From NCBI GenBank assembly GCA_048498995.1, contig JBEHWX010000013.1:19437-83436 (forward strand): a stretch of DNA of 64,000 bases. The letters are read 5' to 3'. Shown here in pieces: positions 8,699 to 62,669 of the stretch. A model generated the notes under the pieces. That model did not search any database and was not told the origin of the DNA. It worked only from the letters and a program-made list of their open reading frames with translations. The position numbers and the translations under genes are program-made. Position 1 is the first letter of the stretch, and each line of letters begins with the position of its first letter. Source of the DNA: Bacteroidota bacterium. GTDB lineage: Bacteria; Bacteroidota; Ignavibacteria; OLB7.

Positions 8699-8715
8699 CA
8701 CAGGAGCACCCGATC

Positions 8716-11445: not shown

Positions 11446-11455
11446 ACGGGAAGCC

Positions 11456-19968: not shown

Positions 19969-19999
19969 GCGTGGTCGTTCTCGTTGCTGAATGGCCGCG

Positions 20000-21402: not shown

Positions 21403-21794
21403 GTGAAGAATGCTGCGAAATGCTCCGGCGCTTCCCCGCCGGACGAGACGGAATGGAGGAACGGGCCAATGGACCCGCCCGGATGGACTTGGCCGCGCAA
21501 GATAACGCTTTGCCCCCCATCTTTCACGGCGGACGCGGTTCACATACGAATTGGAATGCCTTGCCAGGCTCCGGAACGGCGTTTTTTTCAATGGCCGCCC
21601 GCGCCGGCGCGCGCCGAGGTCCGCCGATTAGTGCCACGCCGTACCGTTCGGTTCCCGCTTCATCCACGTTCGGCTCTCACTGAAACGACGCGTGGAGGCG
21701 CCCCGCTCACGGGATGCCTCCACGCTCATATCGCACGTATCGGATGACGACCGATCCGGATGCACGCTCGGCGCGCCGGACGGCGGCGAGGGAA

Positions 21795-22847: not shown

Positions 22848-22858
22848 CTTGGATTCCG

Positions 22859-24140: not shown

Positions 24141-24426
24141 GGGCTGGATGTGCTGTGAAATCGTATGTGAAATGAAGGACTGACTCTGGCAGACGCCCGG
24201 CCCCGGACGCGCGTTTATCCGAGGCCGGTAAGAAACTATTGCGAACCGGAAGCCATGCGAGAAGAGCCGTGGGCGCGGCGACGCCCGATCTCTCCGTCGG
24301 ATCTCTCCGTCGGCTTTCTCCGTCGGATCTCTCCGCGTGGCGCGCGGCCCAACCACCGCGAGCCACCCCGTTCGACGATGCCGACCGGCGCGGACGGCGA
24401 CGCGACCGCGACGCCGGAGGAGACGA

Positions 24427-26865: not shown

Positions 26866-27691
26866 TAATCTTCTGAACGTACGTTCGTTGGGGACGTTGA
26901 TCTTCGCTGAGCTGCTCGCTCGTCTTGCCGAAGCGCCTCTCGCGATGGAGGAAATCGGTCAGGGCATCGTAGAGGTGATCTCGGCGGAACTCGGGCCAGA
27001 ATACGGGGGCCATGTGCATCTCGGCGTAGGCCATCTCCCAGAGGAGGAAATTGCTCAGACGCATCTCGCCGCTGGTCCTGATCATCAGATCGGGGTCGGG
27101 GATGGTATGCGTCGTCAGATAGGTACGGAACAGCTCCTCGGAGATATCCTCCGGCGAGAGCTTGCCGCGCCGGACGTCCAGCGCCAGCGTCTGCACCGCG
27201 CGCAGGATATCCCAGCGGCCGCTGTAGCTGAGCGCGAGGGTGAGCGTCAGGCCGGTGTTGCCGGAAAGGCGCTCGATGCTGGCGTAGAGCTGCTTCTGCA
27301 CCGGCTTCGGCAGCGCGTTGAGCTGACCGATGGCGTTGAGCCTGACGTTGTTCTTGTTCAGCTCCTCGAGCTCCGCCTTCAGGTACTCGAGCAGCAGGTT
27401 CATCAGAACCGTCACTTCGGCTTTCGGGCGCTTCCAGTTCTCGGTCGAGAATGCGTAGAGCGTGAGGAACGGAATGTCCAGCTGGCCGCAGGCCTGAACG
27501 ATGTCACGGACGGAATCGACCCCGGCCTTGTGTCCGGATACCCTCGGCTTCCCCTGCTCCTTGGCCCACCTTCCGTTGCCATCCATGATGATGGCCACAT
27601 GCTGCGGAAGTGCGCCGCTCTCCTTGAGCTCCCGCTGGATCCGTAGATCCTCCTCGGTCTGCTTTGTATTCCAACCCACGTGGATATGCAC
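26843..27691 (-). CDS. uppS: di-trans,poly-cis-undecaprenyl-diphosphate synthase
   Basis: HVAIIMDGNGRWA...TLYAFSTENWKRP...LTLALSYSGRWDI, the cis-prenyltransferase signature. Confidence 0.92.
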   Translation of the reverse strand: MHIHVGWNTKQTEEDLRIQRELKESGALPQHVAIIMDGNGRWAKEQGKPRVSGHKAGVDSVRDIVQACGQLDIPFLTLYAFSTENWKRPKAEVTVLMNLLLEYLKAELEELNKNNVRLNAIGQLNALPKPVQKQLYASIERLSGNTGLTLTLALSYSGRWDILRAVQTLALDVRRGKLSPEDISEELFRTYLTTHTIPDPDLMIRTSGEMRLSNFLLWEMAYAEMHMAPVFWPEFRRDHLYDALTDFLHRERRFGKTSEQLSEDQRPQRTYVQKIIDALTRS

Positions 27692-46456: not shown

Positions 46457-46770
46457 GATGCTCTGAACGTAGATCGTGATTGACGCCGGCCACCCGTTCC
46501 CGCCCACGCGGGAGCCGATCGGCGCCGGCCGTTATGTGCGACGATGATCCGGGCGCCGATGTTGCCGGTCCGGATGCATCGAACATTGCCCCGCGCGGCG
46601 TGCGCGTCGTATGTTGGGTTCCGCCGCGGCTTCCAGGCCCGGCGATACCACCGGAGCATCGCATCCCGGTGACACGCCCGAGTCCGGAGGGCGATACTCT
46701 CTGCGAGGTCCAGCGCCGGCGCCTGCCCAATGGGTCGGCCGCGCGAAAACGCCAAATTTACGATCTGCCG

Positions 46771-47694
46771 ATGAAACGCGTTCTCTCTCTCCTGCCAAGC
46801 ACCACCGAAATCCTCTTTCTCATCGGCGCCGGAGACCAGCTCGTCGGCGTCACCCATGAGTGCGATTATCCGGCCGAGGCTCGTCAGAAGCCGCGCGTCA
46901 CCTCGGCGCGCATCAATCCGATGATGGCCAGCGACGAGATCGACGCGCTGGTGCGCCAGCAGCTGGAGGACTCCGGATCGCTCTACGCGCTGGACATGGA
47001 GCTGGTGCGCGATCTGAGCCCCGAGCTGGTGCTGACCCAGCAGCTCTGCACCGTCTGCGCCGTCGGCTATGCCACCGTTCACGCCGCGATGCGCACGCTC
47101 CCCGAGCCCCCGCTCGTGATGAACATCGAGCCCCGCTCGCTCGACGAGGTCTTCGCGTCGTTCGTCGAGATCGGCCGGCGGCTCGAGCTCGAGGAAGCGG
47201 CCCGGAACCGGGTGGCCGAACTGCGCGCGCGCCTTGCCGCCATTCCGCCGCTCGCCCCGGCGCCACGGGTGCTCCTGCTCGAGTGGCTGATTCCCCCCTT
47301 CTCCGCCGGACATTGGATGGCGGAGATCGTCGAGGCGGCCGGCGCCCTTCCGGTGCTTCACAACAAGGGGGAGCACTCGCGACAGCTGAGCTGGGAGGCG
47401 ATCGGCGCGGCCGAGTTCGACACGCTGGTGATCACCTGCTGCGGCTTCCCGGTGGAGCGGACGCTGCTCGATCTGGAGCGGAGCGAGGAATTACGGGAGT
47501 TGATCGCCGCGCGCCCCTGGCTACGCCTGATCGTCTTCGACGGCAATCACTTCTTCAGCCGTCCCGGCCCCCGGCTCGTCGAAAGCGCGGAGCTGCTCCA
47601 CGCGGCGCTTGCCGGCGCCGATCCCGAGACGGTGGGCTCGACAATTTCGAGACCATATCTCGAGGTGATCCCGGCCGAGGTCGCTCACCGCTGA
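46771..47694 (+). CDS. cobalamin/Fe-siderophore-type periplasmic-binding-protein-fold protein (BtuF-like), no signal peptide detected
   Basis: MKRVLSLLPSTTEILFLIGAGDQLVGVTHECDYP... is the class III (cluster A) substrate-binding fold N-terminus. Start ATG 46771. Confidence 0.65.
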   Translation: MKRVLSLLPSTTEILFLIGAGDQLVGVTHECDYPAEARQKPRVTSARINPMMASDEIDALVRQQLEDSGSLYALDMELVRDLSPELVLTQQLCTVCAVGYATVHAAMRTLPEPPLVMNIEPRSLDEVFASFVEIGRRLELEEAARNRVAELRARLAAIPPLAPAPRVLLLEWLIPPFSAGHWMAEIVEAAGALPVLHNKGEHSRQLSWEAIGAAEFDTLVITCCGFPVERTLLDLERSEELRELIAARPWLRLIVFDGNHFFSRPGPRLVESAELLHAALAGADPETVGSTISRPYLEVIPAEVAHR

Positions 47695-47840
47695 ATCGGA
47701 TCCGGGGCATGCTCCTTGTGCCATTCGATGCGCGGAGCGTCATGTCGCTCCCGAAGGCGCGCCACGTCGGCCCGCGCGGCATGGTCCGGCGTGGATCGTC
47801 GTCGTGGCGATCATCGATAACGACAGGTCGGAGGAGAACC

Positions 47841-48056
47841 ATGGACCCGAAGGAACGAGCCGAGGAGCGGCATGACCAGTCGCGGCCGGACACTCACGGA
47901 GCCGATGCGTCGGCCAACGAGCGACACGAGAAGAGGAACCCGGCACAGGTAACCCGGAACGAAGAGGCCAACCCCGGTGCCGGCGGCCGCGCCGACCGCG
48001 ATCCGGCCGAGGGAGCGCGCGACGAATACGGCACGCGCCCCGGCGAGGAGCAGTAA
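47841..48056 (+). CDS. 71-aa highly charged, disordered hypothetical protein
   Basis: GGAGGAG 3 nt upstream of ATG 47841. MDPKERAEERHDQSRPDTHGADASANERHEKRNPAQVTRNEEANPGAGGRADRDPAEGARDEYGTRPGEEQ. Composition could be a GC-frame artefact. Confidence 0.25.
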   Translation: MDPKERAEERHDQSRPDTHGADASANERHEKRNPAQVTRNEEANPGAGGRADRDPAEGARDEYGTRPGEEQ

Positions 48057-48099
48057 TCCCACGCGCGGAAACAGCCAAGTTACGTTACGAGGTCCGGCG

Positions 48100-48172
48100 G
48101 GAGAAGCCGTTCGCGCCGAATGGTGGAAACACAGTGTGACGCGCCGGAAGCTCCGCCGAGGCGGCATCCGGC
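48100..48172. repeat. 73-bp conserved repeat, copy 1 (module-boundary element)
   Basis: gggagaagccgttcgcgccgaatggtggaaacacagtgtgacgcgc...gctccgccgaggcggcatccgg, near-identical to 51229-51301. In copy 2 it lies in frame with a transposase-like ORF. Confidence 0.8.
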
Positions 48173-48236
48173 AAGCGCACGGGCCACGTCTCGATTGCGG
48201 CGAGGCCGGTCACCATACCGGAGCTGACAAAGCAGA

Positions 48237-48283
48237 CCGGGATCGGAGAGCTCCTCTCCGATCCCGGTATCGTTTTCATTCGG
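48237..48283. terminator. strong hairpin plus T-tract (likely bidirectional terminator) at 3' end of module 2
   Basis: ccgggatcggagag-ctc-ctctccgatcccgg perfect 14-bp stem (48237-48267), then TATCGTTTTCATTCGG. Lies 15-60 nt beyond the stop of gene 48298..49629. Confidence 0.55.
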
Positions 48284-48297
48284 TCGGATGTGCACTT

Positions 48298-49629
48298 CTA
48301 CCGGACGACCACCTTCACCAGGCCGATCACGCTTCCATCGAGTGAGACTCTAACGATGTAGGTTCCCGCGGACAGATCCCCAAGCTCCGTGAGCGGAACT
48401 GACGTTTCTCCAGGCTCGACCATGATCTCCGGCCCGCGCCACACTTCCCTTCCAAGCAGATCGCTCAACGTTACGTCGAGGCGCCCGCCATGCCCGAGAT
48501 CCACGCGAAGGGAAGCAGCGCCGTCCGGCGAGAGCGGATTGGGCACCAAGCGGAAATTCGCGACGTGCTTCCGAGGCATTGCCACCGATGAAACCGATCC
48601 CGATTGATGGATGTAGATTCTGCCGTCGGAGCCCGTAGCCAGCACACGCGTCGGGCTCAGGTAATGAAGCCCAGATAGGGCAATGATCCTCGCGAAATCG
48701 GCACTCGAGTCGCGGACCCACACGCGCCCTCCGTCACTAGTCCGGAACACAGCGGATGAGTAGTCACCGATGATCCCATTTAGTGTATCGAGAAACGCCA
48801 TCGACAAGATCTGCCAGAACTGGCGATCCAGATCGCTGTCGATCCTCACCTCCCAGGTCCTGGCCCCGTCTTCCGTATAGGCAAGTTGCAGCCTTGAAAG
48901 CTCTCCAGTTGACTCAACAAGAAATCGAGACGCCATCCATCCGTGCAGCGAATCGAGGAAGTACAGTTTTTGGGCTTTGTCGCGCGAGGGCATTCTCCGC
49001 CATGTGTGTCCGGTATCGTCGGTCCGAAAGAGCCGTGTCGAATCTCCGTACGTGACGCAGAGCGCATAAAAATTTGCCGGCGTGGGAGTCGAGATCTCGA
49101 CAACCCCGATTGGAAAGTCCACCGGCGGCAGCTCCGATTCGCGCCATGTCCGTCCACTATCAGTCGTTACCATAATGGTGTGATAGCCAAAGGTCGTAAC
49201 ACCGGTCCGTGCGTCGGCCATTGTCACGAGCTTGATCTTGTCCGTGGTGAAGGTGTCCCGGCTCCACGTATTCCCGCCGTCACGTGTAATCACCACTTGC
49301 CCGCTATCACCACCAACCATGCATACGCTGGGCGTCGGATACGAGATATATCGAAGCGGGATCGGCAACGCGTGCGGCCATGTGGCTGCTCCGGAATCCA
49401 GAAAGACGATCCGCCATGTACGTCCGCCGTCCGTGGATTTACGCACGTCGAACTCCGAAAATCCCCGTGTACCAAGGGCCATGCAGTTCACGGAATCGGC
49501 ACAGTCAAGGCATCGAAACTGATACAACGGAATCGAGTCAATGACCTCCCATCGCCCCGTCTGGGCATAGATTCGTCCGCAGAACAGAAGGAACCCAGCA
49601 ACAATCAGAAGGCGAGCAATACGCTCCAT
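48298..49629 (-). CDS. secreted BNR/Asp-box beta-propeller protein with T9SS C-terminal sorting domain (subtype I, paralog A)
   Basis: Signal peptide MERIARLLIVAGFLLFCGRIYAQ. Repeated S/T-x-D-x-G-x-T-W motifs (STDGGRTW, TRDGGNTW, TDSGRTW, TDDTGHTW, TEDGARTW, TSDGGRVW). C-terminal about 85 aa LVPNPLSPDGAASLRVDL...SAGTYIVRVSLDGSVIGLVKVVVR matches the Por_Secre_tail pattern. Confidence 0.8.
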   Translation of the reverse strand: MERIARLLIVAGFLLFCGRIYAQTGRWEVIDSIPLYQFRCLDCADSVNCMALGTRGFSEFDVRKSTDGGRTWRIVFLDSGAATWPHALPIPLRYISYPTPSVCMVGGDSGQVVITRDGGNTWSRDTFTTDKIKLVTMADARTGVTTFGYHTIMVTTDSGRTWRESELPPVDFPIGVVEISTPTPANFYALCVTYGDSTRLFRTDDTGHTWRRMPSRDKAQKLYFLDSLHGWMASRFLVESTGELSRLQLAYTEDGARTWEVRIDSDLDRQFWQILSMAFLDTLNGIIGDYSSAVFRTSDGGRVWVRDSSADFARIIALSGLHYLSPTRVLATGSDGRIYIHQSGSVSSVAMPRKHVANFRLVPNPLSPDGAASLRVDLGHGGRLDVTLSDLLGREVWRGPEIMVEPGETSVPLTELGDLSAGTYIVRVSLDGSVIGLVKVVVR

Positions 49630-49722
49630 TGGATCGACTCCGGTATGTGACTATGCGAATCACCGTGGCGCTTGAGAATCATCGCTGACATGCGGAGGCA
49701 TGAATGACCTCGCGCGGGCACG

Positions 49723-50682
49723 TTAACGAGACACAAATGTGCCCGTTGTGAAATTGCATCCACCGAACGAAACTCTGTAGAAGTAGACGCCAGGGACCAA
49801 CCGTCCGCGGTCAATGACAAACCTATACACTCCATCGCCATCCAACACGGGCCGAAGTTCATCAACCTTTCTACCCGACACATCATTCAACTCCAGCAGG
49901 CCCTTGGCCGCAACCTCGGGTTTGCAGAGTATCGTCATTTCCAGGCCCAGATTGAAGATCTGCACATCATTGATGCGGTCCGCCTTGATAGCTCCCGTCA
50001 CGGGCTTACCTGATGTATCACTAAAGACAATGTTATCACACATCGCGAAACAGGATGATGTCGTAAAATCTCCAATGATAGGATTGATGGGAAATCCCGG
50101 GTTCCCGGATTCGGCATCCACCTCACAAGAAGTTGCGGTTGAGCGTTGATATTCGGTAACGATGCTAACATTACCATTCAGATCCTTGCAAACGCGATAG
50201 CGTGCAACGCAACACCCCGAGCCCTGGCAGGGGCGGATCGTCGGGATGGATCCGACATTCGTCTGCTTCCAGCAACCAGCAACACTGACACGGTAGTAAT
50301 TGATACATGAACCTGCGACAGGATTGGAGAACGGAAGAATCCCGGCAGTGAGGAGATATTGTGCCACCTCACGGAGCCAATCCCCCGGGAAGCACCCCGC
50401 GCATGTCCCAGACACATACTCGATCTTATATATCTGAATGTCGACATAGTTATCCGGCGGGCAGGCATTTCGAAAGACGTACCAGGCTCTAACCTGGCAA
50501 CTGCTCCCGCATGTAGTCAATGTGAAGGCCCAATTGCTGACTCCGACGGTGTTCCAGGAATGCTCTGGACAATCAGGGTAACAGAGCAGGTCTTCTTCCG
50601 AAGGCTGTGCATGGGCCGAGGTGGCAGTGGCAAAGAAGGTCGCGAAGAGCGCCATCATTGCCAGAAGTGTGACTCTCGACAT
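49723..50682 (-). CDS. secreted cysteine-rich protein of unrecognised family with T9SS-type C-terminal domain (paralog B)
   Basis: Signal peptide MSRVTLLAMMALFATFFATATSAHAQ. About 18 Cys in the mature region (LLCYPDCP, TTCGSSCQ, GTCAGC, GCCVARYRVCK, SSCFAMC). C-terminal VYRFVIDRGRLVPGVYFYRVSFGG... resembles the T9SS CTD. Paralogous to 55708..56664. Confidence 0.7.
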   Translation of the reverse strand: MSRVTLLAMMALFATFFATATSAHAQPSEEDLLCYPDCPEHSWNTVGVSNWAFTLTTCGSSCQVRAWYVFRNACPPDNYVDIQIYKIEYVSGTCAGCFPGDWLREVAQYLLTAGILPFSNPVAGSCINYYRVSVAGCWKQTNVGSIPTIRPCQGSGCCVARYRVCKDLNGNVSIVTEYQRSTATSCEVDAESGNPGFPINPIIGDFTTSSCFAMCDNIVFSDTSGKPVTGAIKADRINDVQIFNLGLEMTILCKPEVAAKGLLELNDVSGRKVDELRPVLDGDGVYRFVIDRGRLVPGVYFYRVSFGGCNFTTGTFVSR

Positions 50683-50925
50683 GATTCGTACCTCGTCGAT
50701 AGTAAGTAGTGGATCGACCGCGAACCCTCACTCCTCCCCCATGCGCAATTCCCGTTCTCTCCCGGACTCCGGCCGCTGGTGCGTGATGGCCGACCGTGTC
50801 GAAGTGCGTCGAATGCTGGAAGCCCTGCTTCCGGAATATGCCGGTGAATCGGTGTGTCTTACCTGACGTCGCCAATGGGCGGAACGTGGGTACAAAGGTA
50901 CAGCTCGATACCATTGCTGTCAAGT
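50683..50925 (-). promoter_or_regulatory. conserved about 200-nt leader plus candidate promoter upstream of Cys-rich gene B (copy 1)
   Basis: Near-identical to 56665-56905. On minus strand: TTGACA (rc 50918-50923), N17, TACCTTTG (rc 50893-50900). The conserved leader has hairpins GGAAGC-AGG-GCTTCC and CCGG-CATATT-CCGG. Confidence 0.5.
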
Positions 50926-51228
50926 GGGCCTCAAACGAAAAGAGCCGGGCGCATTGCCTCACAAATAATGTAACCAGAGGTCGTTGGCGGCCAGGGTCGT
51001 TGCCTCATAATAGATGTAACCGATCTAGCACTGAGGCAACGCTATGTCAGAAGCATCCAGACGTGAGTACCTACGGGCCATCTACAGGCGCTATCACACG
51101 GCATCCGTCGAGCAGAAAGGACGCATCCTCGATGAGTTCACCGCTGCCTGCGGCTACAACCGCAAGTACGCCATCCGGCTGCTCAATGCGCCACTGGATC
51201 CTCCTGCCAGGCCACCGAAGCGTCCGGT

Positions 51229-51301
51229 GGGAGAAGCCGTTCGCGCCGAATGGTGGAAACACAGTGTGACGCGCGCGACGCTCCGCCGAGGCGGCATCCG
51301 G
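51229..51301. repeat. 73-bp conserved repeat, copy 2 (module-boundary element)
   Basis: Near-identical to 48100-48172 (differences only around gcgc-c/g-g-a/c-a/g-gctcc). Confidence 0.8.
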
Positions 51302-51379
51302 TGGGATCACCGGCCTGGCGGCCGCGATAGTGACGCCCGATCGCCATCGATCAATATGCCGGTACGAACAAAGCAGGCC

Positions 51380-51420
51380 GGGATCGGAGAGCGGCTCTCC
51401 GATCCCAGTTTCGTTTTCAT
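51380..51420. terminator. strong hairpin plus T-tract (likely bidirectional terminator) at 3' end of module 1
   Basis: gggatcggagagc-g-gctctccgatccc (51380-51406) then AGTTTCGTTTTCAT. Lies 20-60 nt beyond the stop of gene 51439..52773. Homologous to the 48237 hairpin. Confidence 0.55.
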
Positions 51421-51438
51421 TCGGTCGGATGTGCCCTT

Positions 51439-52773
51439 CTAGCGCGCAAGCACCTTCACCAAGCCGATCACGCTTCCATCGAGTGAGACTCTGACAATGT
51501 AGGTTCCCGCGGACAGTCTCCCACGCGGCGCCAGCGGGATCGTCCTCTCGCCAGGCCCAATCACCTCTCCCTGCTCGGTCGCCACCTCCCTTCCGAGCAT
51601 GTCCGTGACCACCACTGTGAGGCGTCCGCCACGCTCCGTCGAGAGCCTGATCATCGCCATGCCGTCGCGGTCTACGGGATTGGGTGACAAACTTAGGCCG
51701 GTACGGCTCGTACCGATCTCCGCAACACCGGACTCCGGTTCGGACTCCGAGACGTAGATCTTGCCGTCGGCCGTCGCGGAGATCAGGCGTGTCGGCGTCA
51801 GATACTCGACACCCACGAAAATTTCAAGATTAGAGGCGAACACGTTCCAATCCCGATACCAGGTGCGCCCCCCGTCGCTGGTCAACCATACAGAGAGCGA
51901 ATAATCACCAATAATACCGTTGAGTGAATCACGGAATGCCATCGACATAATCCTCCAGAACTTGCCATTCAAGTCACTGTCGATCAATGTCTCCCAGGTC
52001 TTCCCTCCGTCACGCGTGTAGGCAAGGTTTAGCCGAGAAAGCTCTCCGTTTGGATCGATAATGAATCGGGACGCCATCCATCCCCGAAGCGAATCGAGAA
52101 AATAAATATTGAAGGCTTGGTCGCGCGATGGCAGTCGTTGCCAGGTTCTGCCCGTGTCGTCGGTTCGAAACAAAAGTGTTGAATCTCCACGAGTTGCACA
52201 TAGGCCCAGGAATGTCCCTGAAGCCGGTGTGGACACATCAGCCACTCCATGGGGATCGGATAAGTCAGGCCACAGGGATTGCCTCCATGTCGCACCTCCA
52301 TCGGTCGTCACCAATACCGAATCTGCGCCGATCACGATCATCCCGACGTTCGCATCCGACATTGACACAGCATTCACTTTGAGATTGCCGAACGTGTCGC
52401 GACTCCATGTACTACCTCCGTCATGTGTAACGAGCAACTGTCCTTTGTCGCCTCCGACCATGCATACATCGGCAGTCGGATGTGAGATATGACGCAGCGG
52501 TGCGGGCAGCGGGTGAGGCCATCCGCTCCCACCAGAGTCAATGTAGACGGTACGCCAAGTCCGGCCGCCATCAGTGGATCTGCGCACGTCAAACTCACCG
52601 AACCCGAATGTTCCAACCGCCATGCAATGCAGAGAATCAGCGCAATCGAGACACATGTACGTGAAACGGTAGACTGAGTCCTGCAACCGCCAATCCGAAA
52701 TTTGAGCAACGCTTCGGTTCCCAATGGTGGCAAGAGCCAGAATCGCGATGGCAAGAATCACGCGCTTCTTCAT
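51439..52773 (-). CDS. secreted BNR/Asp-box beta-propeller protein with T9SS CTD (subtype II, paralog C)
   Basis: Start at MKKRVILAIAILALATIGNRSVAQ (ATG 52773). BNR motifs (STDGGRTW, THDGGSTW, TDGGATW, TDDTGRTW, TRDGGKTW, TSDGGRTW). CTD ...SAGTYIVRVSLDGSVIGLVKVLAR. Confidence 0.8.
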   Translation of the reverse strand: MKKRVILAIAILALATIGNRSVAQISDWRLQDSVYRFTYMCLDCADSLHCMAVGTFGFGEFDVRRSTDGGRTWRTVYIDSGGSGWPHPLPAPLRHISHPTADVCMVGGDKGQLLVTHDGGSTWSRDTFGNLKVNAVSMSDANVGMIVIGADSVLVTTDGGATWRQSLWPDLSDPHGVADVSTPASGTFLGLCATRGDSTLLFRTDDTGRTWQRLPSRDQAFNIYFLDSLRGWMASRFIIDPNGELSRLNLAYTRDGGKTWETLIDSDLNGKFWRIMSMAFRDSLNGIIGDYSLSVWLTSDGGRTWYRDWNVFASNLEIFVGVEYLTPTRLISATADGKIYVSESEPESGVAEIGTSRTGLSLSPNPVDRDGMAMIRLSTERGGRLTVVVTDMLGREVATEQGEVIGPGERTIPLAPRGRLSAGTYIVRVSLDGSVIGLVKVLAR

Positions 52774-52811
52774 GGCGATGTCGGTATTAGGCTGTTGGAA
52801 CAAGATCCGTT

Positions 52812-54143
52812 TTATGGGACAATCGCCTTCACCATGCCGATCACTCTTCCGTCCACCGAGATCCGAATGACGTAGGATCCGGGGGGCATGTCCCGAAACC
52901 CCGTAAGTGGAACTAGGGTTTCTCCAGGCCCGGCAATGACCTCCGCCCCGCGCCACACATCCCTTCCAAGAAGATCGACCATTGTAAGGTCGAGACGACC
53001 GCCGTGTTCGAGCTTCATCCGCAGCGAGGGGGTGCCATCCGACGAGACCGGATTGGGCGCTAGGCTGACATCGGCAACGTCATTGCGAACCATGATCACT
53101 GATGAAACCGGACCCGATTCATCGATAAAAACCTTTCCGTCGGAAGACACAGCCAGCAGACGCGTCGGGTTGAGATACTGAAGTCCCGAAGGAGCAAAGA
53201 TCTGAGCACTCAGAGCGCTTGAATCACGAAGCCACGTATACCCTCCATCACTCGTCCCGAAGACAGCGGAAGAGTTATCTCCAATCACGCCATGCAAGGT
53301 ATCGAGAAACGCGATCGACATGATCCGCCAGAACTGACGATTCAGATCACTGTCGATCCTCACTTCCCACGTTCTGGCGCCATCATTCGTGTAGGCAAGT
53401 TGCAGTCTCGAAAGCTCTCCATTCGGATCGATACTATTTCTGGAGGCCATCCAACCGTGCAGCGAATCGAGGAAATAAATATCCCGGGCCTTATCTCGCG
53501 ATGGCATTTTTCGCCACGTATGCCCGGCGTCGTCAGATCGAAAGAGCGGCGTCGAATCGCCATACGTGGCGCAGAGTGCGTAGAAGGTCGACGGCGTCGG
53601 AGTCACCATCTCGCTAACACCAATTGGAAAGTCCACCGGGGGCAGCTCTGATTCTCGCCAGGAACGACCGGTATCGGTCGTGACCAATATCGTATGATAT
53701 CCAAAGGACGTAACGCCGGTCCGCGCGTCCGCCATTGCCACAAGCTTAATCTTATCTGTCGTGAGCGTATCACGGCTCCAGGTGCCTCCTCCGTCTCGTG
53801 TTATCAGCACCTGGCCGCTATCTCCACCAACAATGCACACATTCGGATCAGGATACGAAACGTGGCGGAGAAGGATAGGCAGCGAATGGGGCCACGTGGC
53901 TGCTCCTGAATCCAGAAACACAGTTCGCCAGGTGCGTCCTCCATCGGCGGACTTCCGGATAAGCGATGCCGCGAACCCCTTTGTTCCGACGACCATGCAG
54001 TTCATGGAATCCGCGCAGTCAAGCGACAGATATTGGACATTCGGTATCGAGTCGACGACCTCCCATCGCCCCGTCTGGGCGTGAAGCTGCACACCGAGTA
54101 CGATCCCGAGCACGATCAGAAAGTGACGGGCCATGCAATGCAT
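52812..54143 (-). CDS. secreted BNR/Asp-box beta-propeller protein with T9SS CTD (subtype I, paralog D)
   Basis: Signal MHCMARHFLIVLGIVLGVQLHAQ (start 54143 or 54134). Roughly 80% identical by eye to paralog A over the N-terminal half. CTD ...SYVIRISVDGRVIGMVKAIVP. Confidence 0.8.
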   Translation of the reverse strand: MHCMARHFLIVLGIVLGVQLHAQTGRWEVVDSIPNVQYLSLDCADSMNCMVVGTKGFAASLIRKSADGGRTWRTVFLDSGAATWPHSLPILLRHVSYPDPNVCIVGGDSGQVLITRDGGGTWSRDTLTTDKIKLVAMADARTGVTSFGYHTILVTTDTGRSWRESELPPVDFPIGVSEMVTPTPSTFYALCATYGDSTPLFRSDDAGHTWRKMPSRDKARDIYFLDSLHGWMASRNSIDPNGELSRLQLAYTNDGARTWEVRIDSDLNRQFWRIMSIAFLDTLHGVIGDNSSAVFGTSDGGYTWLRDSSALSAQIFAPSGLQYLNPTRLLAVSSDGKVFIDESGPVSSVIMVRNDVADVSLAPNPVSSDGTPSLRMKLEHGGRLDLTMVDLLGRDVWRGAEVIAGPGETLVPLTGFRDMPPGSYVIRISVDGRVIGMVKAIVP

Positions 54144-54268
54144 GCGAGATTCTCCAGCAAGTGAACCAAATGCTGCCTGGTAAGGGCCGAGGAGTCTCAC
54201 CCTTCCGCGGGATTCCATCCCGGCATGGCGGACTATCGGTCAGCCAGCACCTGAGGTGCAGACTCTCC

Positions 54269-55606
54269 TTATCGAACGAAGGCCTTCACCACGCCGATCA
54301 TATCTCCATCAAGCGCGATTCTGACGATGTAGGTTCCCGCGGACAGTCTCCCACGCGGCGCCAGCGGGAGCGTCCTCTCGCCAGGCCCAATCACCTCTTC
54401 CTGCTCGGTCGCCACCTCCCTTCCGAGCAGGTCCGTAACGACCACGTCAAGGCGCCCACCCCGCTCCGTCGAGAGCCTGATCATCGCCATGCCGTCGCGG
54501 TCGACGGGATTGGGTGACAAGCTTAGGCCGGTACGGCTCGTACCGATCTCCGTAACACCGGACTCCGGCTGAGATTCGAAGGCGTAGATCTTGCCGTCGG
54601 CCGTCGCGGAGATCAGGCGCGTCGGGGTCAGGTACTCGACACCCGAGAATGTCGTAAGCTTCAGAGCATACACACTCCAGTCCCGATACCAGGTACGTCC
54701 ACCGTCACTGGTCAACCATACGGCAAACGAGTAGTCACCGATGATGCCATTGAGCGTATCCTTGAACGCCATCGAATGGATCTTCCAGAACTTGCCGTTC
54801 AAATCGCTGTCGATCAACTGTTCCCACTGCTCCCCACCATCACGTGTATAGGCGAGATCCAGCCGCGAAAGCTCCCCATTCGGATCGACACGAATTCGAG
54901 ATGCCATCCACCCATGGAGCGAATCGATGAAGTAGATATTCTGCGCTCTATAGCGGGAAGGCATTTGCCGCCAGGTTCGTCCCGTATCATCCGTACGAAA
55001 CAGATAGCTAGAATCGCTCATTACAACACAAAGCACAAGAAAGGTTCCGGGAGCAGGTGCTGTGATATCGACAACTCCATACGCGCGAGGCATCGATGGC
55101 ATCTCCGATTCCCCCCAGGTTCTTCCCCCGTCAGTAGTCACAAATATCGAATCGGCACCAATCGCAAACATGCCCACATTTGCATTAGACATTACAACTG
55201 TTTTCACATTGAGATCGCCGAATATCTGACGGCTCCATGTTGCCCCCCCGTCTCGTGTTACAAGCACTTGCCCTTTGTCCCCGCCGACCGCACATATATC
55301 TGCAGAAGGATATGAGATATGTCGCAATGGAGCAGGTAGTGGGTGCGGCCAGCCAATGCCCCCAGAATCCAGATAAACCGTGCGCCAGGTTCGGCCTCCA
55401 TCGGTGGACTTGCGTATATCGAACTCGCCGAACCCGAACGTACTGATGGCCATGCAGTGCAGCGAATCCGCGCAGTCGAGGCTCATGTAAGACATCTGAT
55501 AAACGGAGTCCTGCAGTTCCCAGTCACTGATCTGTGCAAGCAGGCGGCTTCCCGCGAGAAACAGCATCAATGACAACACCGAAATCAAAGTTTTTCTAAA
55601 CATCAT
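54269..55606 (-). CDS. secreted BNR/Asp-box beta-propeller protein with T9SS CTD (subtype II, paralog E)
   Basis: Signal MMFRKTLISVLSLMLFLAGSRLLAQ. Roughly 75% identical by eye to paralog C. The 3' about 120 bp are virtually identical to C at DNA level. Confidence 0.8.
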   Translation of the reverse strand: MMFRKTLISVLSLMLFLAGSRLLAQISDWELQDSVYQMSYMSLDCADSLHCMAISTFGFGEFDIRKSTDGGRTWRTVYLDSGGIGWPHPLPAPLRHISYPSADICAVGGDKGQVLVTRDGGATWSRQIFGDLNVKTVVMSNANVGMFAIGADSIFVTTDGGRTWGESEMPSMPRAYGVVDITAPAPGTFLVLCVVMSDSSYLFRTDDTGRTWRQMPSRYRAQNIYFIDSLHGWMASRIRVDPNGELSRLDLAYTRDGGEQWEQLIDSDLNGKFWKIHSMAFKDTLNGIIGDYSFAVWLTSDGGRTWYRDWSVYALKLTTFSGVEYLTPTRLISATADGKIYAFESQPESGVTEIGTSRTGLSLSPNPVDRDGMAMIRLSTERGGRLDVVVTDLLGREVATEQEEVIGPGERTLPLAPRGRLSAGTYIVRIALDGDMIGVVKAFVR

Positions 55607-55707
55607 TCAACCTCAGAGTTTCCCCTGTGAGATATCAACAGACAAACATAAACGCCACAAGGTTATTAGGTATCCGTTGCTGCCGCAACGGATACCTAAT
55701 AATACAC

Positions 55708-56664
55708 TCACCGACCGAAGAACTCTCCGGTCGTGAAATTTTGACCGTTGAATGAGATTCGGTAATAGTAGATGCCACTCCCGAATCTGATCCGGTCGAC
55801 CAAGAACCTGCATGCATTATCGCCCACAATTACGGGGCGAAGTTCGGCGACTTTCTTACCCTGAGCATCGAAAATTTCTGCAACCCCTTCCAACAGGGAT
55901 TGGGGGCGACACAAGATCTGCATTTCAGCTCCCTGATGAAATACCTGAACATCATCAGTGATATTATATTGACCGCCCCAATACTTCTTGCCGAATGAAT
56001 CATTAATTGTGATCGCATCGCACTGCGGAGTGCAGGATGATGTCGTTTGGTCTCCAATCACGGGGTTATACGGAAAATTTAGATCGAGCGACTCCGGATC
56101 ATTATCGCATGGGGGCTGAGTTGGCGATTGATATTCAGTCGTAATCGTTATTCGATCGTCGGTACCCTTGCACACCTTATATCGTGCAACGCAACATCCC
56201 GCGGACTGGCAAGCTCGTATTGACGGTACAGAGCCGACTTTGACCTCTTTCCAACAGCTTGCGATACTAACCCTAAAGTAGGTAACACAGTTATCAGGGT
56301 CAGGGTTTGGAAACAGAGAGATGTTATCGACCAGCAAATGTTCGGCTGCTCCTTGGATCCAATCCGAAATCGAACAGCTCGTACATGTTCCAGACACGTA
56401 TTCGATCTTATAAATCTGAACATCCTGATAGTTACTGGGCGCACACGCCGTCCGATACACGTACCAGGCCCGAAGTTGACAGGAGCTACCACATGTGGTC
56501 AGTGTAAACATGTGATTGGATACGCCTACCGTACTCCATTGATCGGCTGGGCAGTCCGGGTAACAGAGCAAGTCTCCGTACGAAGGTTGGGCCATGGCGG
56601 TTACCGCGAGCCCGAGAAACGCGGCGATGAGTGAGAGCATGCCTCTCAAAATGATTCTCGACAT
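55708..56664 (-). CDS. secreted cysteine-rich protein of unrecognised family with T9SS-type CTD (paralog F)
   Basis: Signal MSRIILRGMLSLIAAFLGLAVTAMAQ. Conserved Cys framework shared with paralog B (LLCYPDCP...FTLTTCGSSCQ.RAWYV.R.AC.P.NY.D.QIYKIEYVSGTC..C...CCVARY.VCK). CTD ...GIYYYRISFNGQNFTTGEFFGR. Confidence 0.7.
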   Translation of the reverse strand: MSRIILRGMLSLIAAFLGLAVTAMAQPSYGDLLCYPDCPADQWSTVGVSNHMFTLTTCGSSCQLRAWYVYRTACAPSNYQDVQIYKIEYVSGTCTSCSISDWIQGAAEHLLVDNISLFPNPDPDNCVTYFRVSIASCWKEVKVGSVPSIRACQSAGCCVARYKVCKGTDDRITITTEYQSPTQPPCDNDPESLDLNFPYNPVIGDQTTSSCTPQCDAITINDSFGKKYWGGQYNITDDVQVFHQGAEMQILCRPQSLLEGVAEIFDAQGKKVAELRPVIVGDNACRFLVDRIRFGSGIYYYRISFNGQNFTTGEFFGR

Positions 56665-56905
56665 GATTCGTACCTCGTCGATAGTATGTAGTGGATCGAC
56701 CGCGAATCCTCACTCCCCTTCGTGGGCAAATCCTCCCTCCCGGACTCCGGCCGCTGATGCGTGATGGTCGGTCGTATCGATGTCCGTCGAGTGCTGGAAG
56801 CCCTGCTTCCGGAATATGCCGGTGAATCGGTGTGTCGTACCTGACGTCGCCATCTGGCTGAACGCGGGTACAAAGGTACAACTTGACACCATCGCGACCA
56901 AGCGG
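56665..56905 (-). promoter_or_regulatory. conserved about 200-nt leader plus candidate promoter upstream of Cys-rich gene F (copy 2)
   Basis: Near-identical to 50683-50925. On minus strand: TTGGTC (rc 56896-56901), N17, TACCTTTG (rc 56871-56878). Confidence 0.5.
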
Positions 56906-56973
56906 CGCCAAACGCAACGAGCCGGTGAGGCACTTCCCTCACCGGCTCGTACAATCGCTCTTCTGATTCTCCC

Positions 56974-58179
56974 TCACGCGACTTCGGCCTCGCGGCCCTC
57001 AAGACCCGGAGGAGTATCGGCACCTTTCGAGAGCGCCAGCAGACCGCCGGCCAGCGAGAAGAACGCGCCGGCAAAGCCATAGAGCACGATCTCTCCATGC
57101 TCGATGAAGAAGGCGCCGATCAGCGGACCGAGGATCTGCGCGATGCTCGCCAGCGACTGGCTTACGCCGAGCGCCGCTCCCTGCTCGTGCCGCCCCACCG
57201 ATCGGGTGATCAGCGTGGTCAGACATGGCCGCACCACCGCGCCGCCGAAGCTGCCGATGCCGGTGAGGATCAGCAGGAACGCGAGCGAGTTCACGTAGCC
57301 GAGAAGCGAATATCCGATCGCCATCGTGATGAACCCGATAATCGCGAGCCGCATCTCGCCGAGACGCTTCACCAGACGCCCGATCAGCCCTCCCTGAATC
57401 GCCGCGCCGATCACGCCGGAAAATGCGTAGATGTAGCCGGTATGCTCCGCGTCGTATCCCATCTGCCGCTCCAGGTAGAGCGGCAGCGCGGTGGTCATCG
57501 TGGCGAAGGAGAGCGTGAAGGCGAGGAATTCGAGCAGGTGACGCCGCACCATCGGACGCTCGAAATACTGCGTCATCCGCTTGATCCTTCCGATGCCGTC
57601 GTTGAGCGGCGCGCTCCGGGGCACTTTCGGCAGCAGCGTGATCGTGCCGATGATCGACAGCAGCGACAGCCCGGCCGCGGCGTAGGCCGGCCATTGATAG
57701 CCGTACTTGGAGAGGAATCCCGCGATCGGCGGTCCTATCACGAACCCGGAGCCGAACGCGATGCCGATCAGCGCGAACGCCTTGGTCCGCTCCTCCGGCT
57801 TCGTCACGTCGGAGATGTAGGCCTGCGCGATCGTGAGGTTGCCGGCGGTGAAGCCGTCGATGATGCGCGCCAGAAAAATCAGCCAGAGCGCGTTGGCCCC
57901 GCCGAGTACCAGAAATCCGACGAACGACCCGATCTGGCTCACCAGCAGCGTCGGCTTCCTCCCGACGCGGTCGGAGATACGTCCGAGAATCGGTCCGGCA
58001 ATGAACTGACAGATGGCGAACGAGGAGGTGATCAGCCCGACCGTCATCGGCGAGGCGCCGTAATGCTCCGCGTAAAACGGAAGGAACGGCAGGATGAGGG
58101 TGAACCCGAGAACGTCGACCGCGACGACCAGAAATATCGGAATCAGGGGTGAGGCGAAGCGCCGTGACTGCGTGCTCAT
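56974..58179 (-). CDS. MFS transporter (DHA1/TetA-like)
   Basis: 12 TM segments. MFS motif A-like GRISDRVGRKP. Start at MSTQSRRFASPLIPIFLVVAV (ATG 58179). Confidence 0.85.
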   Translation of the reverse strand: MSTQSRRFASPLIPIFLVVAVDVLGFTLILPFLPFYAEHYGASPMTVGLITSSFAICQFIAGPILGRISDRVGRKPTLLVSQIGSFVGFLVLGGANALWLIFLARIIDGFTAGNLTIAQAYISDVTKPEERTKAFALIGIAFGSGFVIGPPIAGFLSKYGYQWPAYAAAGLSLLSIIGTITLLPKVPRSAPLNDGIGRIKRMTQYFERPMVRRHLLEFLAFTLSFATMTTALPLYLERQMGYDAEHTGYIYAFSGVIGAAIQGGLIGRLVKRLGEMRLAIIGFITMAIGYSLLGYVNSLAFLLILTGIGSFGGAVVRPCLTTLITRSVGRHEQGAALGVSQSLASIAQILGPLIGAFFIEHGEIVLYGFAGAFFSLAGGLLALSKGADTPPGLEGREAEVA

Positions 58180-58329
58180 GGGTGCGTCGAAAATGAGAAC
58201 TGCGCCCCGGGGATCGGGGCGCGACTGAATCGGAGCGGGCGCGGTCATTCCCGGGCAAATGACGCGCCGCGTCGCCGCATGTATGCGTCGGACGGCGTCC
58301 CGGCCGGACGCCCCCGAGTATCGGCCGGC

Positions 58330-58372
58330 GCAAAAAAGAAACGCGGGGAACCCATCGTCCGAGTTCCCCGCG
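58330..58372 (-). terminator. intrinsic terminator downstream of atpG
   Basis: Minus strand: GCGCGGGGAACTCGGACGATGGGTTCCCCGCG hairpin (58342-58372) followed by TTTCTTTTTTGC (rc of 58330-58341). About 25 nt after the atpG stop. Confidence 0.6.
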
Positions 58373-58395
58373 CCTTCAGCGTTCGGCGTGCGGAA

Positions 58396-59277
58396 TTACT
58401 GCCCCTTGAGAGCCTCGGCGCCCGAGACGATCTCGAGGATCTCCGTGGTGATCGCGGCCTGACGTGCCTTGTTGTAGATCAGGCGGAGCGACCTGACGAG
58501 GTCCTTGGCGTTGCGCGTCGCGTTCTCCATGGCGGTCATGCGCGCCCCCTGCTCGGCGGCGTTCGACTCCAGAAGAATATTCCACATCTGCGTGTTCAGA
58601 TGCTTCGGCAGCAGCGCGCTCAGAATCTCGTCCTGCGACGGCTCGAAGATGTAGTCGACGGACGGACCGGTTGCGGCCTGCGCCTCGAGCTTCGGAATCG
58701 GCAGGATCTGCTCGGTGTTGACGTTCTGCTTCACCACCGACTTGAACTCGTTGTAGATCACCTCGACCTTGTCGTAGCGTCCCTGCAGGAATCCCTCGGT
58801 GGCCTCGGACACGATCTTCCGCGCGGTCGAGAACTCCAGGTTGTTGAAGATACCCGGATAGGAACCGACCACGTTGTAGCCGCGACGCGAATAGAAGTCC
58901 ACCGCGCGCTTGCCGACCAGGATCAGGTCGAGGTTGCCGGCGGCCTGAAGCGCGCCGTACTTGTTCTTGATGATGTAGTTGGCCGCCTTGAACAGGTTGC
59001 TGTTGAAGGCGCCGCAGAGGCCGCGGTCGGCCGCCACGATCACCAGCGCAACGCGATGCACGTCACGCTCCTCCAGAAGAGGGCTGACGGCCGATTCGAT
59101 CTGCGAGGCCAGGAACATGAGCACCTCGCGCAGCTTCCGTCCGTACGGACGCGCGGCGATGATGCTGTCCTGCGCCCGGCGGAGCTTCGCCGCGGCCACC
59201 ATCTTCATGGCCTGCGTGATCTTCGCCGTGTTTTCGATACCCTGGATGCGGCCTCGTATCTCGCGGAATTTTGCCAT
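58396..59277 (-). CDS. atpG: F0F1 ATP synthase subunit gamma
   Basis: MAKFREIRGRIQGIENTAKITQAMKMVAAAKLRRAQ..., the canonical gamma N-terminus. Start ATG 59277. Confidence 0.92.
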   Translation of the reverse strand: MAKFREIRGRIQGIENTAKITQAMKMVAAAKLRRAQDSIIAARPYGRKLREVLMFLASQIESAVSPLLEERDVHRVALVIVAADRGLCGAFNSNLFKAANYIIKNKYGALQAAGNLDLILVGKRAVDFYSRRGYNVVGSYPGIFNNLEFSTARKIVSEATEGFLQGRYDKVEVIYNEFKSVVKQNVNTEQILPIPKLEAQAATGPSVDYIFEPSQDEILSALLPKHLNTQMWNILLESNAAEQGARMTAMENATRNAKDLVRSLRLIYNKARQAAITTEILEIVSGAEALKGQ

Positions 59278-62539: not shown

Positions 62540-62669
62540 TAGGATTCCTCCGAACGAGATAAAATAATGTGTAGAAAATGCTGAATTGGATCCGAATTAG
62601 ACGGGCAAAGTTACGGATTCGTGCAGGATCCACCGCAGCACGTAGTTCCGAAAAAGATTTCAAGACGTT

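What the first reader, a model, noticed from the sequence alone, without database searches (positions are those of the whole stretch)
47841..56960. Duplicated two-module array of six T9SS-tagged secreted proteins (4 BNR beta-propellers, 2 novel Cys-rich proteins)
Six consecutive minus-strand genes all carry Sec signal peptides and about 80-aa Por_Secre_tail-like C-terminal domains. Four are about 440-aa BNR/Asp-box propellers. These fall into two subtypes (A/D versus C/E) in an interleaved order: transcription runs F-E-D-C in module 1 and B-A in module 2. Two are about 320-aa proteins with a conserved 18-Cys framework and no recognisable domain. Each module begins with a Cys-rich gene behind a near-identical leader and ends with the same 73-bp repeat and hairpin terminator. 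This indicates a segmental duplication of a 'Cys-rich + propeller' cassette that is still diversifying. The linkage of a disulfide-rich protein with Ycf48/sialidase-like propellers as T9SS cargo is not a described system as far as I know. This is the best candidate in the window for a novel surface, adhesion or glycan-handling module.
Basis: partly seen in the sequence, partly recalled or inferred. Interest (0 to 1): 0.85.

Follow-up and report, generated by a model that had tools for sequence, protein, structure and literature searches.

The report
Paired cysteine-rich and propeller secreted proteins
Six neighbouring genes encode secreted surface proteins built from one conserved gene pair, a previously undescribed 14-cysteine domain followed by a seven-bladed propeller, and the pair recurs in distantly related bacteria, so the two proteins very probably work together, though their function is unknown.

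Summary
Window 48298-56664 (minus strand) carries six genes. Four are ~444-aa BNR/Ycf48-like seven-bladed propellers, in two subtypes. Two are ~318-aa proteins with 18 Cys each. All six have signal peptides ending AxA|Q and C-terminal tails resembling the T9SS type A sorting domain. The repeated leaders, the 94-nt repeats and the hairpins are real.

The interpretation needs correction. This is not a young duplication. The paralogs are old (dS above 1.1) and under purifying selection (dN/dS 0.15-0.24). Only the flanks and the C/E 3' ends are near-identical, which points to gene conversion or recombination. A 98%-identical strain lacks exactly the 5984-bp F-E-D-C block, which is bounded by ~295-nt direct repeats, and a transposase remnant sits at the junction. 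All six genes have foreign-looking codon use (GC3 0.53-0.66 versus 0.82-0.90 in neighbours).

The Cys-rich region is a real domain family absent from the libraries searched: about 164 positions, 14 conserved Cys, 194 cluster representatives. It has no Pfam, NCBIfam or PDB match. In 9 of 10 informative loci from other organisms (GC 36-61%), a member sits next to a seven-bladed propeller gene of BNR or FG-GAP type.

The best reading is a conserved two-protein T9SS surface module. Its function is inferred, not shown.

The parts
48092..48185 (.). 94-nt repeat, copy 1, downstream of gene A
   Evidence: Direct repeat family D8, 89% identical to 51222-51315. The 39-nt exact core is found twice against 0 expected.
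48236..48268 (-). Hairpin terminator after gene A (15-bp stem). It could act in both directions, because a small plus-strand ORF converges on it.
   Evidence: Terminator scan; inverted repeat I3.
48298..49629 (-). Gene A: 443-aa BNR/Ycf48-like seven-bladed propeller (subtype 1) with a signal peptide (IYA|Q) and a T9SS-type C-terminal sorting domain (CTD)
   Evidence: Pfam Sortilin-Vps10 35 bits and PSII_BNR 34 bits. TIGR04183 20 bits. 69% identical to D.
49723..50682 (-). Gene B: 319-aa protein with a signal peptide (AHA|Q), the undescribed 14-Cys domain (18 Cys in total) and a CTD-like tail
   Evidence: No Pfam hit. TIGR04183 15 bits. 55% identical to F. Family search.
50668..50962 (-). Leader repeat, copy 1 (about 295 nt upstream of B). 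It contains a TAnnTTTG motif at 50893-50900.
   Evidence: Repeat families D6 and D9. The strain L001 leader aligns to both window copies. Motif count 10 against 2.6 expected.
51044..51175 (+). Remnant of a transposase N-terminus (44 aa) in the junction between the two modules
   Evidence: tblastn gives 50-54% identity over residues 1-44 to features annotated 'transposase family protein' in plasmids, E 2e-6. There is no Pfam hit.
51222..51315 (.). 94-nt repeat, copy 2, downstream of gene C
51378..51408 (-). Hairpin terminator after gene C (14-bp stem)
   Evidence: inverted repeat I1.
51439..52773 (-). Gene C: 444-aa propeller (subtype 2) with a signal peptide (SVA|Q) and a CTD
   Evidence: Pfam PSII_BNR 43.5 bits and BNR 36.6 bits. 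TIGR04183 23.1 bits, which meets the cut-off. 74% identical to E. The last third is 88-97% nt-identical to E.
52812..54143 (-). Gene D: 443-aa propeller (subtype 1) with a signal peptide (LHA|Q) and a CTD
   Evidence: PSII_BNR 50 bits. TIGR04183 14 bits. It equals database protein P0006.
54269..55606 (-). Gene E: 445-aa propeller (subtype 2) with a signal peptide (LLA|Q) and a CTD. A TAnnTTTG motif lies 37 nt upstream, at 55643-55650.
55708..56664 (-). Gene F: 318-aa protein with a signal peptide (AMA|Q), the 14-Cys domain (18 Cys in total) and a CTD
56652..56946 (-). Leader repeat, copy 2 (upstream of F). It contains a TAnnTTTG motif at 56871-56878.

Best explanation
The region is an expanded copy of a conserved two-gene cassette. 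The first gene encodes a small secreted protein with an undescribed, disulfide-rich alpha+beta domain of about 164 positions and 14 conserved cysteines. The gene or genes after it encode a seven-bladed BNR/Ycf48-like beta-propeller. Both kinds of protein have a Sec signal peptide that exposes an N-terminal glutamine and a C-terminal Ig-like domain of the T9SS type A kind. They are therefore most likely exported to the periplasm, oxidised there, translocated by the type IX secretion system, and attached to or released from the cell surface. I infer that the Cys-rich protein and the propeller act together outside the cell as a binding module, with the propeller face as a ligand platform and the disulfide-stapled domain as its partner or adaptor. 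I do not think they are enzymes. In this genome the cassette lies on a variable island with foreign codon use. One module (B-A) is shared with a 98%-identical strain. The other (F-E-D-C, 5984 bp) is present only here. It was gained or lost by recombination between ~295-nt leader repeats, and an insertion-sequence remnant sits at the junction. Shown: the gene content, the family, the synteny, the strain polymorphism and the selection regime. Inferred: T9SS dependence, surface location, physical partnership and binding function.
For: Gene content and domains.

The Cys-rich domain is a real family. An exhaustive profile search gave 194 representatives at E <= 1e-3 and 28 at E <= 1e-10. My own HMM re-hit 154 of them. 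14 Cys are invariant in a 14-sequence alignment. The confident model has pLDDT 86.

Conserved pairing. The two closest non-self relatives of the propeller among 5.8 billion proteins, P0007 and P0008, each lie directly downstream of a Cys-rich homolog. The same arrangement is found at L019/L020, with GC 36% and ~25% identity. At L016 one small gene lies between the two. In three further lineages the Cys-rich gene directly precedes an FG-GAP seven-bladed propeller with a CTD-like tail.

All six genes appear functional: dN/dS is 0.15-0.24.

Island and polymorphism. GC3 is 0.53-0.66 against 0.82-0.90 in neighbours. Strains L001 and L002 lack window 50963-56946.

The host is Bacteroidota-like. Four of four host secreted proteins in the window follow the Q-rule (PMC5837995), and the window carries an LpxC-FabZ fusion.
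Against: - No T9SS machinery gene lies in the 64-kb window, and the rest of the genome could not be examined.
- Five of the six CTD hits fall below the curated cut-off, and B and F lack the PNP-type start of the CTD.
- About half of the Cys-rich family are stand-alone proteins of ~200 aa without a CTD.
- One informative locus (L021-L024) has no propeller neighbour.
- Physical interaction was not tested.
- The pairing is not one-to-one here, because F is followed by three propellers.
- Nothing identifies a ligand.
- The synteny sample is small (10 informative loci) and was partly chosen through the propeller.
Confidence: 0.55

Rival explanations
1. The two protein kinds are co-regulated but independent cargo. 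The Cys-rich protein is a stand-alone secreted factor, for example a lectin, a protease inhibitor or a small-molecule binder. The propellers are unrelated surface proteins. They share an operon only because they are needed under the same conditions.
For: Half of the family occurs as stand-alone ~200-aa secreted proteins. One locus has no propeller. The partner propeller belongs to two unrelated sequence classes, BNR and FG-GAP. The stoichiometry here is 1:3 and 1:1.
Against: Adjacency and gene order (Cys-rich first) are kept across lineages with only 23-31% identity and GC from 36 to 66%. That is unusual for mere co-regulation. The neighbour is always a seven-bladed propeller, whatever its sequence class.
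Confidence: 0.25
2. The cassette is a glycan-degrading module. The propellers are glycoside hydrolases (sialidase, GH74 or F510_1955-like) and the Cys-rich protein is a carbohydrate-binding accessory.
Against: The NF045728 scores are far below its 175-bit cut-off. The model is a single seven-bladed propeller, whereas to my knowledge sialidases are six-bladed and GH74 needs two propellers. The highest sequence identity among the structural hits is to the non-enzymatic Ycf48 (20%). There are no susC/susD or other glycan-utilisation genes nearby. The Cys-rich domain matches no CBM.
Confidence: 0.1
3. The tandem arrangement is an assembly artefact. Two allelic versions of one locus from co-existing strains were joined through their shared flanks, so the six-gene array does not exist in any cell.
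For: Two Logan assemblies of a 98%-identical strain show only one module. The modules share ~295-nt and ~94-nt flanks that could mislead an assembler.
Against: The junction 50963-51221 is unique sequence. It includes a transposase remnant and a diverged distal leader end, and it is not explained by joining two alleles. The window's 3' region of gene A differs from that of strain L001, which carries a C-type patch. That patch suggests that the C-type 3' sequence occurs in the L001 lineage too, though the window's own A copy could instead have diverged. Read-level evidence was not available.
Confidence: 0.05

Closest known systems
T9SS type A cargo proteins (CTD-bearing; TIGR04183 / PF18962), such as the gingipain RgpB and mirolase
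   Different: The passenger domains are not proteases or known adhesins. The HMM scores are mostly below the curated thresholds. T9SS dependence is untested and no T9SS genes lie in the window.
Ycf48/HCF136 (photosystem II assembly factor) and the 'YCF48-related' BNR propellers of non-photosynthetic bacteria
   Different: The score against the Ycf48 equivalog model is 42-55 bits against a cut-off of 326, so these are not Ycf48. The proteins here have a T9SS CTD and are extracellular. They are paired with a Cys-rich protein. There is no photosynthesis context.
PorZ of Porphyromonas gingivalis (T9SS surface component with two beta-propellers and a CTD; PMC5121618, PMC8545088)
   Same: Both are beta-propeller passengers carrying a T9SS CTD and located at the cell surface. 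PorZ works with a partner (PorU) and binds a glycan (A-LPS).
   Different: PorZ has two propellers and is a conserved, essential machinery component. The genes here are single propellers in a multi-copy array that is variable between strains, on an island with foreign codon use. No sequence relationship was tested or seen.
FG-GAP / VCBS + UnbV_ASPIC (CRTAC1-like) propeller proteins
   Same: In three lineages, members of this class occupy the position downstream of the Cys-rich gene that the BNR propeller occupies here. They are also seven-bladed and carry a CTD-like tail.
   Different: They belong to an unrelated sequence family and are larger (660-760 aa). None is present in the window.

Membership tests
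T9SS type A cargo (CTD; TIGR04183 / PF18962) | The C-terminal domain matches the type A sorting-domain HMM at or above the curated cut-off. | tested here: inconclusive
   TIGR04183 scores: A 20.0, B 15.3, C 23.1, D 14.3, E 20.4, F 18.3 bits, against a cut-off of 23. PF18962 scores are 15.8-16.7 bits for C and E, against a cut-off of 27. Only C reaches a cut-off. Relatives reach 25-41 bits.
T9SS type A cargo (CTD; TIGR04183 / PF18962) | The last ~80 residues form a compact Ig-like beta-sandwich (3+4 strands; PMC11285876). | tested here: met
T9SS type A cargo (CTD; TIGR04183 / PF18962) | An N-terminal Sec signal peptide is present. | tested here: met
   All six proteins have a hydrophobic N-terminus ending AxA|Q. 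The E model shows an N-terminal helix at residues 2-23. This was judged by eye, without a predictor.
T9SS type A cargo (CTD; TIGR04183 / PF18962) | The host genome encodes the T9SS core (SprA/Sov, PorV, PorU, GldK/L/M/N). | not testable with these tools
   None of these genes is in the 64-kb window. The genome is not among the GTDB representatives scanned. The only indirect support is the Q-rule in host proteins and the LpxC-FabZ fusion.
Ycf48/HCF136 (NF010237 equivalog) | The whole-protein score reaches the equivalog cut-off of 326 bits. | tested here: not met
   The scores are 42-55 bits. The fold and the Asp-box repeats are shared, but these proteins are not Ycf48.
Sialidase / GH33 or F510_1955 glycosylhydrolase | The family HMM is matched at its cut-off, and the fold is a six-bladed propeller with catalytic residues. 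| tested here: not met
   NF045728 scores 39-47 bits against a cut-off of 175. BNR_2 scores 20-21 bits against a cut-off of 31.4. The best structural matches are seven-bladed propellers and the E model has roughly four strands per blade for seven blades. Catalytic residues were not examined.
Any described protein family, for the Cys-rich domain | The domain matches Pfam-A, NCBIfam, PDB sequences or PDB folds. | tested here: not met

The most novel reading that the evidence does not exclude
The 14-Cys domain is a new fold that forms an obligate extracellular heterodimer with seven-bladed propellers of two unrelated sequence classes, BNR and FG-GAP. That would define a previously unrecognised two-component surface receptor or adhesin of Bacteroidota-like bacteria. 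Multi-copy variants that differ between strains, as here, would tune ligand or phage/predator recognition.
Probability: 0.2. Interest if true: 0.65.

Novelty: new variant of a known kind. Interest (0 to 1): 0.45.

Why it matters
T9SS-bearing bacteria export dozens to hundreds of CTD proteins, and most have unknown passenger domains. This work defines one such passenger as a coherent, rare domain family missing from every library searched: 14 conserved Cys, no Pfam, NCBIfam or PDB counterpart. It also shows that the family is genomically tied to seven-bladed propellers across deep divergence. That gives a concrete, testable hypothesis of a two-protein surface module for a set of 'hypothetical' proteins, and a candidate new Pfam family. 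The locus is also a clean example of surface-protein cassette turnover. It combines old paralogs, homogenised flanks, strain-level gain or loss of 6 kb between direct repeats, and an insertion-sequence scar. It does not bear on a long-standing open question, and no function is established.

Tried and rejected
- The k-mer-prefiltered homolog search with F found only F itself and its paralog. The exhaustive profile search was needed to find the family.
- The same search with a 14-sequence alignment returned only 9 proteins.
- Scans for related loci were almost empty. Genome contigs gave one distant locus and did not contain the window's genome, so the organism could not be named. Metagenome contigs gave one locus.
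- The exact-sequence lookup of F found no contig on record, and cluster lookups gave no names.
- The fold searches of the full-length F model were dominated by the CTD.
- Rfam found nothing in 47000-58500, so the conserved ~295-nt leader is not a known riboswitch or RNA.
- The sigma-70 promoter scan found no minus-strand site in the leaders.
- The plus-strand ORF 51044-51442 has no Pfam hit. Only its first 44 residues resemble a transposase. I found no support for my initial idea that the 94-nt repeat is transposase-derived, because the match stops before it.
- Weak PF24316 (T6SS Tli3 immunity) hits are short stretches (14-41 residues) that I take to reflect the Asp-box repeats, so I did not pursue them.
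- P0225 and P0233 in the family list are false positives. They are HYR and InlB-repeat proteins.
- A possible fusion of the Cys-rich domain with an SBBP propeller (P0161, P0224) rests on one sub-threshold SBBP hit and remains only a hint.
- Literature searches for this pairing found nothing.
Full report
**1. What is in the sequence**

Window 48298-56664 carries six consecutive minus-strand genes.
- A: 48298-49629, 443 aa.
- B: 49723-50682, 319 aa.
- C: 51439-52773, 444 aa from the MKKRV start.
- D: 52812-54143, 443 aa.
- E: 54269-55606, 445 aa.
- F: 55708-56664, 318 aa.

The gaps between genes are 38-125 nt, so the layout is operon-like: F-E-D-C, then B-A.

A, C, D and E hit PSII_BNR (34-50 bits, cut-off 27), Sortilin-Vps10 and BNR/Asp-box. 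They fall into two subtypes. A/D share 69% and C/E 74% identity, against 51-55% across subtypes.

B and F are 55% identical and have 18 Cys each. They have no Pfam or NCBIfam domain apart from a weak C-terminal sorting-domain hit.

All six begin with a hydrophobic signal sequence ending AxA|Q. This was read directly from the sequence, without a predictor.

- A leader of about 295 nt lies upstream of B and of F. One 65-nt stretch is 95% identical and a 172-nt stretch is 87% identical.
- A 94-nt repeat at 89% identity lies downstream of A and of C. Its 39-nt exact core occurs twice against 0 expected.
- A 14-15-bp GC-rich hairpin sits immediately after the stop codons of A and C.

**2. The C-terminal tails**

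Every tail hits the T9SS type A sorting-domain (CTD) model TIGR04183. The scores are 14-23 bits, and only C reaches the cut-off of 23.

A profile of 83 family members hits PDB sequences only in this region. The hits include a 'Por secretion system C-terminal sorting domain' chain, mirolase and RgpB.

Among the family members that carry tails, 22 hit PF18962 (best E 4e-10), 19 hit TIGR04183 and 3 hit the type B CTD model CHU_C.

I conclude that the tails are T9SS-type CTDs. T9SS dependence itself is inferred. No T9SS machinery gene lies in the window, whose other genes are housekeeping: Kdp, the lipid A pathway, BamA, OmpH, S1, PurL, AccC, MutS2 and ATP synthase.

The host is nevertheless Bacteroidota-like.
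- Four of four host secreted proteins in the window (two OmpH, BamA and a BBP2 porin) expose Gln after the signal peptide. This is the 'Q-rule', reported as specific to Bacteroidetes (PMC5837995).
- LpxC is fused to FabZ. To my knowledge this fusion is typical of that group.
- TAnnTTTG, the Bacteroidetes -7 promoter motif (from my own knowledge), occurs 10 times against 2.6 expected. The occurrences include both leaders, about 210 nt upstream of B and F, and one site 37 nt upstream of E.

**3. The Cys-rich domain**

The k-mer-prefiltered search found only F and B. The exhaustive profile search of 1.84 billion cluster representatives found 194 proteins at E <= 1e-3 and 28 at E <= 1e-10. An HMM rebuilt from 14 sequences re-hit 154 of them over about 164 positions.

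The hallmark is 14 invariant cysteines, which implies seven disulfides. The conserved motifs include C-x-P-D-C, W-R-[VI]-S-x-x-x-C-W and C-C-[LV]-x-x-Y-x-V-C.

Three architectures occur:
- signal peptide plus domain only, about 200 aa: 79 proteins;
- domain plus a tail of 60 aa or more: 44 proteins;
- N-terminal extension plus domain plus tail: 25 proteins.

No Pfam-A or NCBIfam model covers the domain, even at E <= 1 across 83 members.

The model shows an alpha+beta domain. Three long strands are followed by one helix and five more strands, with most 10-residue blocks above pLDDT 90.

**4. The propellers**

The model of E (pLDDT 85) is a single seven-bladed propeller plus the CTD sandwich.

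The scores against the Ycf48 equivalog (42-55 bits against 326) and the F510_1955 glycosylhydrolase model (39-47 bits against 175) exclude membership of either family.

**5. The pairing is conserved**

The two closest non-self relatives of the propeller in the 5.8-billion-protein collection are P0007 (31% identity) and P0008 (28%). Both lie immediately downstream of a Cys-rich homolog. P0007 follows a 297-aa Cys-rich protein with a CTD (L003-L006). P0008 follows a Cys-rich protein without a CTD (L007).

Further loci show the same link.
- L019/L020: a 36%-GC NCBI contig has a 325-aa Cys-rich protein with a CTD followed by a 434-aa BNR propeller with a CTD, at only ~25% identity to the window proteins.
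- L016: a stand-alone Cys-rich gene, a small CTD protein, then a 593-aa BNR propeller whose CTD scores 41.5 bits on PF18962.
- L008/L009, L010 and L017: in three other lineages the Cys-rich gene directly precedes an FG-GAP or FG-GAP/UnbV_ASPIC propeller of 660-760 aa. This is a different sequence class with the same seven-bladed architecture.
- L021-L024: one lineage has no propeller neighbour.
- Undetermined: three sets of contigs end too early to tell. All three contigs shown for the closest relative, P0124, break about 200 nt after the gene, just after the start of a new signal peptide.

In total, 9 of 10 informative arrangements put a seven-bladed propeller next to the Cys-rich gene, at GC from 36 to 66%. 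It is the main reason to think the two proteins function together.

**6. History of the array**

The coding regions are old paralogs under purifying selection.
- A/D and C/E have dS of 1.1-1.2 and dN/dS of 0.15-0.17.
- Pairs across subtypes have dS of 1.7-2.4.
- Synonymous sites between B and F are saturated.

By contrast, the leaders (87-95% identity), the terminator and 94-nt repeat region (89-93%) and the last third of C against E (88-97% nt identity) are far more alike than the rest. This points to gene conversion or to recombination through conserved flanks. It does not fit a recent segmental duplication that is still diverging.

All six genes have GC3 of 0.53-0.66, against 0.82-0.90 in flanking genes, and regional GC drops from about 0.66 to 0.54-0.58. 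The cassette therefore looks acquired.

Two Logan assemblies, L001 and L002, are 98% identical to the flanks and contain only MFS - leader - B - A - small ORF. They lack window 50963-56946 (5984 bp: the junction plus C, D, E and F). That block is bounded by the two leader copies.
- Their single leader is chimeric. It is F-like at the distal end and B-like at the proximal end.
- The region 3' of their A gene carries a C-type patch, and the protein ends in the same KVLAR as C.

This suggests exchange between the modules in the population. Deletion from a two-module ancestor and insertion into a one-module ancestor both fit the data.

The unique junction contains the first 44 codons of a transposase-family gene. 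That argues that the tandem arrangement is real rather than an assembler join, although read-level confirmation is missing.

**7. Mechanism and confidence**

Shown: six intact, constrained genes; a CTD-type fold; a new domain family; conserved synteny with seven-bladed propellers; strain-level turnover.

Inferred, in order:
- Sec export, with the N-terminal Gln becoming pyroglutamate;
- periplasmic disulfide formation;
- T9SS translocation, followed by surface attachment or release;
- cooperation of the Cys-rich protein with the propeller as a non-enzymatic binding module.

I put about 0.8 on 'T9SS-type cargo', about 0.8 on 'functionally linked pair' and about 0.4 on 'physical complex with a binding role'. 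Overall confidence is 0.55.

The rivals are independent co-regulated cargo (0.25), a glycan-degrading enzyme plus an accessory protein (0.1) and an assembly artefact (0.05).

**8. Novelty**

The propellers are new members of a very common class: BNR/'YCF48-related' proteins with CTDs. The Cys-rich domain is absent from every library searched (Pfam-A, NCBIfam and the PDB). Two full-text searches for the combinations tried found nothing relevant.

I rate the finding as a new variant of a known kind (T9SS cargo) and not as categorically new, with moderate interest.

Noticed in passing
window 51044-51175 (+): The first 44 codons of a transposase-family gene (50-54% identity to annotated plasmid transposases) lie in the 259-nt junction between the two modules. 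The rest of the ORF reads into the 94-nt repeat and has no match.
   Followed up: partly
window 47841-48056 (+): A 71-aa highly charged ORF that looks disordered, with a good RBS and host-like GC3 (0.79). It converges on the terminator of gene A and is conserved in strain contigs L001 and L002. It has no Pfam hit.
   Followed up: partly
window 51439-51800 vs 54269-54630: The 3' third of C and E, covering the CTD and the preceding linker, is 88-97% nt-identical while the rest of the genes is ~60-75% identical. This looks like a gene-conversion tract between non-adjacent paralogs.
   Followed up: partly
L001 5540-5920 vs window 48060-48420 and 51190-51560: In the single-module strain, the last codons of the A-type propeller and its terminator and spacer are C-type, and the protein ends KVLAR as C does. 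This C-type patch sits within A-type flanks, a mosaic that suggests exchange between modules.
   Followed up: partly
window, 10 sites (e.g. 50893-50900, 55643-55650, 56871-56878, 46753-46760, 62606-62613): TAnnTTTG, the Bacteroidetes-type -7 promoter motif, occurs 10 times against 2.6 expected. No shuffle reached 10. Several sites lie upstream of gene starts.
   Followed up: partly
window 22859-26865 and 2389-3984: Host secreted proteins (two OmpH, BamA and a BBP2 porin) all expose Gln after the predicted signal-peptide cleavage site. This is the 'Q-rule' and suggests a Bacteroidota-like host despite 66% GC.
   Followed up: partly
window 16051-27691 (-): An outer-membrane biogenesis cluster: LpxK, a DUF374 protein, LpxB, an LpxC-FabZ fusion (20000-21520), LpxD, two tandem OmpH/Skp genes, BamA and UppS.
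   Followed up: no
window 4281-12151 (+): A Kdp potassium-uptake locus: KdpA, KdpB, the KdpD sensor kinase and an OmpR-type response regulator.
   Followed up: no
L008 9286-20915; L010 696-11607: In the FG-GAP-linked lineages the cluster continues downstream of the Cys-rich and FG-GAP pair: OmpH, an unknown ~200-aa protein, then a giant protein of 1636-2217 aa with no domain hit and a further large ORF. In L008 and L009 it is preceded by a weak sigma-70 region 2 protein. This may be a larger envelope-associated locus.
   Followed up: no
L012-L014 (contig ends): All three contigs shown for P0124, the closest external relative of B and F (44-48% identity), end about 200 nt after the gene, just after a new signal peptide (MPMRASATISLLILLLNLAFGRLQAQ). 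This fits an assembly break in repeated propeller paralogs.
   Followed up: partly
P0131, P0141, P0144, P0149 and similar (family members of 500-700 aa): N-terminal extensions of some family members contain other repeated Cys-rich modules, with motifs such as CCPCP...W and C...GC.V. These also have no Pfam hit. They may be further undescribed domains.
   Followed up: no
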